Positions 52,025 through 52,194 of a stretch of 64,000 bases of DNA are shown piece after piece (the first letter of the stretch is position 1; each line of letters starts with the position of its first letter). This DNA comes from Candidatus Krumholzibacteriia bacterium (GTDB lineage: Bacteria > Krumholzibacteriota > Krumholzibacteriia > Krumholzibacteriales > Krumholzibacteriaceae): NCBI GenBank assembly GCA_023131975.1, contig JAGLYV010000077.1, forward strand, positions 24,546 through 88,545. The letters are read 5' to 3'. The notes below the pieces were generated by a model. The model saw only the letters and a list, made by a program, of their open reading frames with translations, had not been told where the DNA came from and searched no databases. The translations under genes and the position numbers were made by a program.

Positions 52025-52160
52025 AAACGAGGTTAGCTATCTCCACATTGCTTCACGTGTCATGACCAACCTAAGGCCTGAGCAGCAAGATCGCTCCGCT
52101 AAAAGATAGGCTTGGAGCTGATCGATCACGATCGCGTAGAAATCAGCTATTGCCCCGTTT
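52025..52160 (-). ncRNA. Candidate ~136-nt rod-like non-coding RNA of unknown family
   Basis: Begins 7 nt after a consensus -10 and ends at the bidirectional terminator; 5' and 3' ends pair and nested stems continue to an apical loop; G-U pairs work only on the - strand. Confidence 0.7.
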
Positions 52161-52166
52161 GTCCTG

Positions 52167-52194
52167 ATTATATGGGACGCGGAACGTATGTCAA
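52167..52194 (-). promoter_or_regulatory. Consensus sigma70 promoter driving the candidate ncRNA
   Basis: TTGACA (52194-52189)-N16-TATAAT (52172-52167), with an AT-rich UP-like tract upstream. Confidence 0.85.

What the first reader, a model, noticed from the sequence alone, without database searches (positions are those of the whole stretch)
52025..52194. Unannotated rod-like ncRNA behind a consensus sigma70 promoter, convergent with tRNA-Arg
Seen in sequence: a - strand TTGACA-N16-TATAAT with an AT-rich upstream tract and no credible downstream CDS. The predicted +1 (A52160) is the first base of a closing stem AAACGGGG/CCUCGUUU. Nested stems follow: UAGCU/AGCUA, AUUUCUAC/GUGGAGAU, CGUG/CACG, GAUCAGCU/GGUUGGUC, GCCU/AGGC and an apical UAGCG..UGCUG hairpin. 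About eight G-U pairs would be A-C mismatches on the + strand, which supports the - strand. The RNA ends at the terminator shared with tRNA-Arg. It lacks the SRP GGAA/AGCAG helix-8 motif and is not tRNA- or tmRNA-like. Inference: an abundant structured RNA, either a short divergent 6S-like RNA polymerase-binding RNA or a new family.
Basis: partly seen in the sequence, partly recalled or inferred. Interest (0 to 1): 0.88.

Follow-up and report, generated by a model that had tools for sequence, protein, structure and literature searches.

The report
New rod-shaped small RNA of Krumholzibacteriota
This is a real, independently transcribed, rod-shaped small RNA gene of a family not yet described, kept as one copy per genome across much of an uncultured bacterial phylum, and what it does is still unknown.

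Summary
On the - strand a 12/12 sigma70 promoter (TTGACA 52194-52189, N16, TATAAT 52172-52167) precedes a 136-nt RNA (52160-52025). A terminator shared with the convergent tRNA-Arg follows.

- **Conservation:** the element is one copy per genome. My second covariance model found it in 65 of 151 genomes of the phylum, which record titles of relatives name as Krumholzibacteriota.
- **Structure:** covariation supports the rod. 88.3% of cells pair, against 34-47% when partners are slid, and 36 of 46 pairs show compensatory changes.
- **Invariant parts:** two parts barely vary or never vary. One is a 27-nt apical module (AGCGAAGCG...UGCYGC...GGCC). The other is a CGUG/CACG box.
- **Known families:** no Rfam 15 family matches. 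Canonical SRP, 6S, RNase P and tmRNA genes lie elsewhere in the genome, so this is not a divergent copy of any of them. Hfq, CsrA and Ro were not found.
- **Context:** the gene nearly always lies 200-510 nt downstream of a conserved ~15-aa micro-ORF (...IDLFWWLR). That ORF usually follows a membrane PP2C phosphatase gene.
- **Expression:** not shown, because no RNA run held the sequence.

My best reading is a stable protein-binding RNA of a new family (about 0.45). A base-pairing regulator is the main rival.

The parts
52195..52225 (-). A+T-rich tract upstream of the -35 hexamer. It holds TGATAA (52217-52212) and a T-rich run. It is either UP-element-like or a regulator site.
   Evidence: Sequence. 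In 29 distinct family-f1 promoters the consensus is AAAA.TGATAAT..TT..ATTTTTT.CTTGACA. Its role is inferred.
52189..52194 (-). -35 hexamer TTGACA
   Evidence: 12/12 with the -10. TTGACA is exact in 53 of 55 homologues.
52167..52172 (-). -10 hexamer TATAAT, 16-nt spacer. The predicted +1 is A52160, 7 nt downstream.
   Evidence: 52 of 55 homologues have at least 10 of 12 promoter matches placed 3-13 nt before the model start. The +1 is inferred from spacing, not mapped.
52025..52160 (-). Body of the RNA, a 136-nt rod of nested helices P1-P7. P1 pairs 52160-52153 with 52032-52025.
   Evidence: Fold. The window's own copy scores 103.3 bits with R1.
52056..52130 (-). Span bounded by the two strands of the P4 box: CGUG (52130-52127) pairs with CACG (52059-52056). 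The box is nearly invariant and has a conserved bulged A next to it. The span also encloses P5, P6 and the apex.
   Evidence: pairs 41-164 to 44-161: CG 54/54, GC 52/52, UA 44/50, GC 45/47 of cells with letters. This is no evidence for pairing as such, but shows strong sequence constraint.
52074..52100 (-). Apical module AGCGGAGCGAUCUUGCUGCUCAGGCCU. It is invariant or nearly so in family f1. The family-wide core is AGCGAAGCG..UGCYGC...GGCC.
   Evidence: Invariant columns and the 55-row alignment. Its internal pairing cannot be tested by covariation, and one modelled pair is A-U in only 32 of 52 rows.
51984..52014 (.). Bidirectional intrinsic terminator shared with tRNA-Arg. The stem is 52014-51989. 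The U-run for the - strand is 51988-51984, and the T-run for the + strand is 52015-52019.
   Evidence: Sequence and the fold of the 177-nt transcript. A hairpin plus T-run follows the RNA in 27 of 29 f1 homologues by my crude rule.

Best explanation
Window 52225-51984 (- strand) is a self-contained gene for a stable small non-coding RNA of a family not in Rfam 15. Transcription starts at about A52160 from a consensus sigma70-type promoter. It ends at the intrinsic terminator shared with tRNA-Arg, giving about 177 nt, of which 136 nt form the rod.

The 5' and 3' ends pair (P1). A long interrupted helix (P1-P5) leads to a conserved apical domain. That domain holds a 3x6 internal loop, a 3-bp helix GCC/GGC, an asymmetric loop with a variable 8-11-nt 5' side, and an invariant terminal hairpin region.

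Shown here: the promoter, the terminator, single-copy conservation across much of the phylum, and covariation in P1-P5.

Inferred: the RNA works as a protein-binding RNA, either a scaffold or a decoy. Its recognition surface would be the invariant apical module together with the invariant CGUG/CACG box. The covarying helices would serve only to hold and protect that surface.

The gene forms a cassette with an upstream 15-aa micro-ORF, usually behind a membrane PP2C phosphatase gene. Its partner may therefore belong to that signalling module, but this is a guess.

My odds: real structured ncRNA gene 0.95; new family 0.9; protein-binding mode of action 0.45.
For: **Conservation**
- BLAST found the element in 20 of 41 relatives: 19/24 of the same family and 0/16 of other families.
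- Model R1 found it in 48 of 151 genomes of the phylum.
- Model R2 found it in 65 of 151, always one match per genome. By family: f1 25/32, f7 10/10, f6 14/17, f9 8/9, f2 1/1, f3 1/6, f4 5/61, f5 0/5, f8 0/9.

**Promoter and terminator**
- At least 10 of 12 promoter matches in 52 of 55 homologues.
- A terminator, or a U-run directly after P1, follows.

**Structure**
- On 55 sequences 88.3% of cells pair, against 33.7-46.9% with partners slid.
- 36 of 46 pairs have changes on both sides, against 20-24 slid.
- The covariation score is 0.354 against 0.063-0.094 slid, and 0 of 500 shuffles reach it.
- The 29-sequence f1 set gives the same picture.

**Strand**
- 304 G-U cells against 96 A-C cells in the modelled pairs.

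**Protein binding rather than pairing**
- Helices P4, P6 and P7 keep their sequence while neighbouring helices covary freely. That pattern is expected when the helix itself is read.
- Both ends are locked in P1, as in 6S, SRP and Y RNAs (that comparison is recalled).
- No extended complementarity exists anywhere in the genome; the best off-target blastn-short hit has E 0.27.
- Translation-start regions show no enrichment of strong duplexes over shuffled cores.

**Not a known universal RNA**
- SRP 74.1 bits, 6S 75.8 bits, RNase P 325 bits and tmRNA 189.3 bits all lie elsewhere in the genome.
Against: - No transcript has been seen; no RNA run on record holds the stretch.
- No partner protein is identified. 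Hfq, CsrA and Ro/TROVE were not found in the 96%-complete genome, which removes the usual suspects without supplying a new one.
- An invariant 27-nt segment is also what a base-pairing seed against a conserved target would look like.
- My target test was crude. It used rough gene calls, one genome, and a duplex program that ignores accessibility.
- The RNA is dispensable in some lineages. It was not found in f5 (0/5) or f8 (0/9) or in most of f4. In one f3 genome the micro-ORF hairpin is followed directly by tRNA-Arg with no RNA between (L114).
- The CM-based alignments lean towards the structure they were fitted to.
Confidence: 0.45

Rival explanations
1. It is a trans-acting, Hfq-independent base-pairing regulatory sRNA. 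The invariant apical segment, or the CU-rich strands CUCUCAAGC and GGCCUCUGA that face each other in the internal loop, would be the seed that pairs with mRNAs. The rod would only stabilise the RNA.
For: - Phylum-wide sRNAs with C/U-rich exposed motifs exist, such as RsaE/RoxS and 6C (recalled).
- The 3' strand of the 3x6 loop, CUCUGA, is unpaired in the model and is preceded by GGC, so it resembles an anti-Shine-Dalgarno stretch.
- The gene lies behind a coding unit, like 3'-UTR-type sRNAs with their own promoter (the comparison is recalled).
Against: - The CUCUGA motif is not kept in the window's own genus, which reads GGCCUU-AGG.
- The invariant segment is mostly inside predicted helices.
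- No enrichment of strong duplexes at about 3786 rough translation starts: the real core has a top-20 mean of -33.6 against -32.0 to -35.8 for 12 shuffles.
- No long complementarity in the genome.
- Hfq was not found.
Confidence: 0.25
2. It is a second, short 6S-like RNA that binds RNA polymerase holoenzyme, perhaps one carrying the alternative sigma factor encoded nearby. If the 3-bp P6 opens, the loops around it form a bubble of roughly 16 x 12 nt that could mimic an open promoter.
For: - The shape is a rod with closed ends, and the promoter is strong.
- Some bacteria carry two 6S RNAs (recalled).
- In many genomes the locus lies near a sigma-factor gene (window 50461-51315: Sigma70 r1.2, r2 and r4) and a PP2C/SpoIIE-type phosphatase of the kind used in sigma-factor partner switching (that role is recalled).
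Against: - No 6S hit even at E <= 10.
- The genome has a canonical 6S.
- At 136 nt it is well below typical 6S length.
- The apical hairpin has at most about 7 bp, short for a downstream-duplex mimic.
- P6 shows G-C/U-G/A-U variation that keeps pairing, which speaks for a closed helix.
Confidence: 0.1
3. It acts locally on the neighbouring micro-ORF or PP2C unit. It could be an antitoxin-like or antisense partner of the small hydrophobic peptide's mRNA, or a processed 3' part of that transcript.
For: - By my reading, 51 of 65 genomes with the RNA have the micro-ORF 200-510 nt upstream on the same strand. Four more have variant micro-ORFs.
- In genus g11 the block micro-ORF plus RNA is inverted as one unit.
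- The family-f4 hits that sit apart from the micro-ORF lack the invariant apex.
Against: - The longest pairing between the RNA and the micro-ORF mRNA is matched by shuffled RNAs in 24 of 25 loci, and it sits at different places.
- The micro-ORF is single-copy and vertically conserved (107 of 151 genomes), unlike typical toxin-antitoxin loci.
- The micro-ORF occurs without a detected RNA in most f4 genomes (micro-ORF 49/61, RNA 5/61).
- The RNA has its own consensus promoter.
Confidence: 0.1
4. It is not a functional RNA: a chance promoter and hairpin in a spacer next to a tRNA gene.
For: The single-sequence fold is only z -2.43. No expression data exist.
Against: Promoter, rod and ends are conserved in 55 distinct homologues, with compensatory changes in 36 of 46 pairs.
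Confidence: 0.02

Closest known systems
6S RNA (Rfam RF00013)
   Same: A rod-like RNA with paired ends and internal loops, one copy per genome, not followed by a gene.
   Different: No covariance-model match. The genome has a canonical 6S elsewhere. This RNA is about 50 nt shorter, has no large two-sided central bubble in the supported structure, and has only a short apical hairpin.
Bacterial small SRP (4.5S) RNA (RF00169)
   Same: A hairpin-shaped RNA of about 100-140 nt whose apical domain, with two internal loops, is the most conserved part.
   Different: No model match. A canonical SRP RNA lies on contig C119. The apex sequence AGCGAAGCG..UGCYGC does not resemble the helix-8 motif (that motif is recalled).
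Bacterial Y RNA / YrlA with Ro (Rsr)
   Same: Paired 5' and 3' ends and a conserved helix as a protein-binding site.
   Different: No Ro/TROVE protein found in the genome, no Rfam match, and no tRNA-like domain.
Phylum-wide conserved regulatory sRNAs such as RsaE/RoxS (Firmicutes) and 6C (Actinobacteria); recalled, not tested
   Same: Single-copy, own promoter and terminator, conserved across a large clade, with invariant C/U-rich stretches.
   Different: Those RNAs expose their motifs in hairpin loops or linkers. Here the invariant parts lie largely within a closed rod, and the CU-rich loop is not kept in all genera.
Neighbouring sRNA and small-protein gene pairs such as mgrR-mgtS of E. coli; recalled, not tested
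   Same: An sRNA gene with its own promoter kept next to a gene for a very small hydrophobic protein.
   Different: Here the two are co-directional, usually follow a PP2C phosphatase gene, and nothing is known about their regulation.

Membership tests
6S RNA (RF00013) | Match to the family covariance model | tested here: not met
   Not among the 4 gathering-level hits of the window, nor among the 11 hits at E <= 10 in 51850-52450. The genome's canonical 6S is at C148:9166-9352 (75.8 bits).
6S RNA (RF00013) | Rod of about 180 nt with a large central bubble between a closing stem and a long terminal stem (recalled definition) | tested here: inconclusive
   The rod and closing stem are present. 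The length is 136 nt. The largest loops are 3x6 and (8-11)x3, separated by a conserved 3-bp helix, and the terminal hairpin has at most about 7 bp.
6S RNA (RF00013) | Binds sigma70 holoenzyme and templates product RNA | not testable with these tools
   Needs biochemistry.
Bacterial small SRP RNA (RF00169) | Match to the family covariance model, and being the genome's SRP RNA | tested here: not met
   No hit. The canonical SRP RNA is at C119:7182-7281 (74.1 bits).
Y RNA / YrlA | Ro (TROVE-domain) partner encoded in the genome | tested here: not met
   PF05731: 0 matches in the 96.2%-complete genome. Absence in a draft genome is not proof.
CsrB/RsmZ-type CsrA sponge | CsrA in the genome and repeated GGA motifs in loops | tested here: not met
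   PF02599: 0 matches. No conserved repeated GGA in the 55-row consensus.
Hfq-dependent sRNA | Hfq encoded in the genome | tested here: not met
   PF17209: 0 matches.
Type I antitoxin or neighbour-antisense RNA | Complementarity to the neighbouring small-ORF mRNA beyond chance, at a conserved place | tested here: not met
   In 24 of 25 loci the longest pairing is reached by shuffled RNAs, and its positions differ.
Independent bacterial sRNA gene (generic kind) | Own promoter, own terminator, conservation, and covariation on the transcribed strand | tested here: met
   Transcription itself was not observed.

The most novel reading that the evidence does not exclude
The RNA and the 15-aa micro-protein (...IDLFWWLR) form a conserved two-gene cassette. 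This cassette would be the output arm of a membrane PP2C (PDZ-TM-GAF-SpoIIE) signalling module next to a sigma-factor gene. In this reading the RNA is a new kind of ribonucleoprotein regulator. It could be a decoy for RNA polymerase carrying an alternative sigma, or for a partner-switching protein. That would make it a functional analogue of 6S that arose independently in this phylum.
Probability: 0.1. Interest if true: 0.85.

Novelty: new variant of a known kind. Interest (0 to 1): 0.58.

Why it matters
Krumholzibacteriota has no cultured representative. My two literature searches found nothing on its non-coding RNAs: 0 papers hold 'Krumholzibacteriota' together with 'noncoding RNA'. Of 68 papers that hold the phylum name, I saw only the top 8 in a listing of titles and abstract starts, and none of those 8 concerns RNA genes.

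Beside the four universal small RNAs, this is a fifth structured RNA kept as a single copy, with a near-perfect promoter, across much of the phylum. Its invariant 27-nt apex and CGUG/CACG box point to a specific, still unknown partner. Few RNAs show this combination, and those that do (6S, SRP, Y, tmRNA) turned out to be ribonucleoproteins with central roles.

The work also yields practical tools. It gives a covariance model that can annotate these genomes, and it exposes a conserved micro-protein gene that gene callers will miss.

Tried and rejected
**Rfam.** The gathering scan of the whole window gave only 4 tRNAs. The E <= 10 scan of 51850-52450 gave nothing credible apart from the tRNA; the best other hit was a microRNA model on the terminator at E 0.065. 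The gathering scan of 16 homologous loci gave only tRNAs.

**Expression.** The look-up of sequencing runs listed no RNA holder. I laid one metatranscriptome (X7, same sample as DNA run X2) and three DNA runs. X7 covers only the tRNA region, with contigs of other organisms, and nothing from 51997 onwards. The organism is only about 5x deep in that sample's DNA. This says nothing either way about expression.

**RNA-mRNA duplexes.**
- Without length limits, duplexfold returned meaningless whole-length duplexes. I discarded both.
- A scan of about 3786 roughly called translation starts with the 32-nt apical core showed no enrichment over 12 shuffles. The test is crude, so I read it as 'no support', not as evidence against pairing.

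**Self-similarity.** blastn-short of the RNA against its own genome gave only chance-level hits, E >= 0.27.

**Complementarity to the micro-ORF mRNA.** Not above shuffles.

**A GCGAAGCGAT copy in the window's spacer.** It is not present in any of the other 27 non-empty spacers, so it is a coincidence.

**Likeness between the micro-ORF hairpin stem (GUUCCCG/CGGGAAC) and the P4 box.** Considered by eye and dropped, because the flank of P4 differs in family f9 while the hairpin does not.

**Fur-box idea for the upstream TGATAAT.** The window's copy matches TGATAATNATTATCA (a recalled consensus) at only 9 of 14 positions. The genome has 31 sites with at most 2 mismatches, against roughly 9 expected by my estimate. 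I did not follow their genes, so this remains a lead only.

**RNAalifold on the plain MAFFT alignment.** It found only 21 pairs, because the variable helices were misaligned. I therefore set the structure by hand from sub-group folds and realigned with the model.

Full report
**What is at the coordinates**

On the - strand, TTGACA (52194-52189), a 16-nt spacer and TATAAT (52172-52167) give a 12-of-12 promoter match. Only 7 such perfect sites exist in the 2.79-Mb genome. A52160 lies 7 nt downstream and is the first base of the closing stem.

Its energy is -47.7 kcal/mol (z -2.43; 3 of 200 shuffles fold as well). The + strand gives -34.1 kcal/mol (z -0.51).

An A/U-rich linker and a hairpin with a U-run (52014-51984) follow. 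The same hairpin serves the convergent tRNA-Arg(CCT) at 51902-51978. No credible ORF is present.

**Conservation**

BLAST of the element against relatives hit 20 of 41 genomes. That is 19 of 24 in the same family and 0 of 16 outside it.

All 20 loci show the same layout: a T-rich tract, CTTGACA, a -10 box, the RNA, and a terminator.

A pattern for the apical core found 29 places in one genome per species of 185,579 species.
- 26 carry the whole element. Of their records, 13 are titled Krumholzibacteri-, 12 are unlabelled MAGs, and 1 is titled Patescibacteria; that one has the same sequence as a locus from the phylum search.
- 3 are isolated matches inside G+C-rich DNA of other phyla, and I take them as chance.

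A covariance model built from 29 distinct sequences (R1) found full-length single matches in 48 of 151 genomes of the phylum. A second model built from 55 sequences (R2) found 65 of 151. Among genomes at least 90% complete and at most 5% contaminated, that is 51 of 117. By family the R2 counts are f1 25/32, f7 10/10, f6 14/17, f9 8/9, f2 1/1, f3 1/6, f4 5/61, f5 0/5 and f8 0/9.

Two further f3 genomes have an evident but very divergent copy, with a perfect promoter, that the models score poorly (L115, L116). The true spread is therefore wider than the counts.

Across the 55 homologues:
- 52 have at least 10 of 12 promoter matches in the right place.
- 53 have an exact TTGACA.
- In f1 a separate terminator hairpin follows (27 of 29 by my crude rule).
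- In several other families a U-run directly follows P1, for example in L078, L079, L080, L084, L089, L092 and L095. There the rod itself would be the terminator.

**Structure**

I derived the helices from folds of sub-groups, wrote them on the alignment, and realigned with the model.

| Measure | 29 f1 sequences | 55 sequences |
|---|---|---|
| Cells that form standard pairs | 90.5% | 88.3% |
| Same, partners slid by 1-3 columns | 31.1-45.5% | 33.7-46.9% |
| Pairs with changes on both sides | 28 of 46 | 36 of 46 |
| Same, slid | 13-15 | 20-24 |
| Covariation score | 0.274 | 0.354 |
| Same, slid | 0.052-0.075 | 0.063-0.094 |
| Shuffles reaching the observed values | 0 of 500 | 0 of 500 |

These alignments were fitted to the structure and the sequences are related, so the figures overstate somewhat. 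Even so, whole helices (P1, P2, P3, P5) change sequence between genera while staying complementary. An example is AACGAGAC/GUCUCGUU against UUUGGGG/CCCAA.

G-U cells outnumber A-C cells 304 to 96, which fits the - strand.

By contrast, P4 (CGUG/CACG), P6 (GCC/GGC; only G-C to U-G/A-U changes) and the apical region hardly vary. The apex (AGCGAAGCG-N-UGCYGC) contains two AGCG and two GC(U) repeats, so it can fold in two ways. The few natural changes do not decide between them. One modelled pair is A-U in only 32 of 52 rows.

Three f4 homologues keep the rod and the P4-P6 region but have a different apex.

**What it is not**

No Rfam 15 family matches the window copy or 16 homologous loci. The genome has canonical genes elsewhere:
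- SRP RNA, 74.1 bits
- 6S RNA, 75.8 bits
- RNase P RNA, 325 bits
- tmRNA, 189.3 bits

Hfq, CsrA and Ro/TROVE were not found in this 96.2%-complete draft.

**Context**

In the window the order is:
- sigma factor (50461-51315, +)
- apt (51326-51847, +)
- tRNA-Arg (+)
- the RNA (-)
- a small ORF (-)
- an 843-aa PDZ / multi-TM / GAF / SpoIIE-PP2C phosphatase (52729-55260, -)

In 28 of 29 loci analysed, the phosphatase gene ends 340-665 nt upstream of the RNA on the same strand. The exception belongs to genus g11.

That spacer has no long ORF. It does carry a Shine-Dalgarno site and a roughly 15-codon ORF whose peptide ends in (I/L)DL(L/F/W)WWLR(R/K). In the window this is the SD at 52432-52426 and the ORF at 52419-52372, encoding MLPIMLIIDLFWWLR. 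The ORF was seen in 28 of 28 loci where the spacer could be defined.

Codons vary synonymously while the peptide is kept, so it is translated or at least selected as a peptide.

A conserved hairpin (GUUCCCG...CGGGAAC; window 52349-52309) follows it.

The motif occurs once in the own genome. It is present in 107 of 151 genomes of the phylum (one copy in all but two), against 6 hits for the reversed control pattern.

By my reading, the 65 genomes with the RNA divide as follows:
- 51 have this ORF 200-510 nt upstream on the same strand.
- 4 more have variant forms.
- 4 (all f4) have it elsewhere.
- 6 show no match to the pattern.

In genus g11 the block ORF-plus-RNA is inverted as a unit between the same flanking genes.

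In f4 the ORF closes the phosphatase operon with its own terminator, and the RNA-like element stays beside apt and tRNA-Arg.

The linkage is therefore strong but not absolute. Part of it may be inherited gene order.

**How it most likely works**

The steps shown are the promoter, the terminator, the single-copy conservation and the covarying rod. Everything beyond that is inference.

I favour a protein-binding RNA (0.45) for four reasons.
- The invariant parts include helices whose neighbours covary freely.
- Both ends are sealed in a stem.
- The promoter has consensus hexamers, an A+T-rich upstream tract and often a G+C-rich discriminator. It looks like those of stable-RNA genes (that comparison is recalled).
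- I found neither long complementarity in the genome, nor enrichment of duplexes at translation starts, nor pairing with the neighbouring micro-ORF mRNA.

The last three results are weak negatives.

The main rival is a base-pairing regulator that uses the apex or the CU-rich loop strands (0.25). A second 6S-like polymerase binder (0.1) and a locally acting partner of the micro-ORF/PP2C unit (0.1) remain possible.

**Limits**
- No RNA data: no RNA holder was listed, and the one metatranscriptome laid did not cover the locus.
- Low-depth contigs from two other DNA runs show strain differences at 52103 and 52108, which lie in the variable 5' side of the apical loop, and at 52162, just upstream of +1. 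That fits the model, but these are single contigs.
- Literature: 0 papers hold the phylum name together with 'noncoding RNA'. Of 68 papers that hold the phylum name, I saw only the top 8 in a listing of titles and abstract starts, and none of those 8 concerns RNA genes.
- Names of motifs and comparisons with 6S, SRP, Y RNA, RsaE, 6C, MgrR/MgtS and Fur boxes are recalled, not tested, unless a call is cited.

**Verdict**

This is a real and well-supported new family of small structured RNA, specific to Krumholzibacteriota as far as searched. Its function is unknown, and it has a noteworthy conserved partner gene for a micro-protein.

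Noticed in passing
window 52372-52432 (- strand): A conserved micro-ORF with a Shine-Dalgarno site encodes MLPIMLIIDLFWWLR. The peptide motif (I/L)DL(L/F/W)WWLR(R/K) is kept with synonymous codon changes. It is present in 107 of 151 genomes of the phylum (one copy in all but two), and it lies just upstream of the RNA in most genomes that have the RNA. 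It is too short for the family libraries and would be missed by gene callers. It may be a small partner of the upstream membrane PP2C phosphatase.
   Followed up: partly
window 52309-52349 (- strand): A hairpin downstream of the micro-ORF has a stem sequence, GUUCCCG/CGGGAAC, that is conserved across families. In f1 it is followed by a U-run and looks like a terminator. In f9 and f6 it is not, so it may have another role.
   Followed up: partly
window 52212-52217 and the same place in 29 f1 loci: A conserved TGATAAT lies at about -57 to -51 of the RNA's promoter, followed by a T-run. It could be an UP-like element or half of a Fur-family box (a recalled consensus). The window's copy fits the 15-mer at only 9 of 14 positions. 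The genome has 31 sites with at most 2 mismatches, whose neighbouring genes I did not examine.
   Followed up: partly
L005, L009, L010, L033, L048 (genus g11): The block micro-ORF plus RNA is inverted as one unit between PP2C and sigma-apt-tRNA-Arg. There the RNA converges on the PP2C gene instead of on the tRNA.
   Followed up: partly
L114 (G027, family f3): The micro-ORF hairpin is followed directly by the convergent tRNA-Arg, with no RNA gene between. This looks like a clean loss of the RNA in that genus.
   Followed up: no
own genome, contigs C4, C42, C103, C122, C161, C162 (outside the window): These contigs hold the six other perfect TTGACA-N16-18-TATAAT promoters of the genome. What they drive was not examined, and some may head further unannotated RNAs.
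   Followed up: no
window 52729-55260 (-) and 50461-51315 (+): A PDZ / multi-TM / GAF / SpoIIE-type PP2C phosphatase and a sigma-70-family factor with regions 1.2, 2 and 4 flank the locus. This pair suggests a partner-switching-type pathway (recalled). No STAS or anti-sigma gene was looked for.
   Followed up: no
window 42060-42133, 46975-47051, 49805-49881: tRNA-Gly(CCC), tRNA-Pro(GGG) and tRNA-Pro(CGG), all on the + strand. They are ordinary. tRNA-Pro(CGG) upstream of sigma-apt-tRNA-Arg recurs in other families.
   Followed up: no
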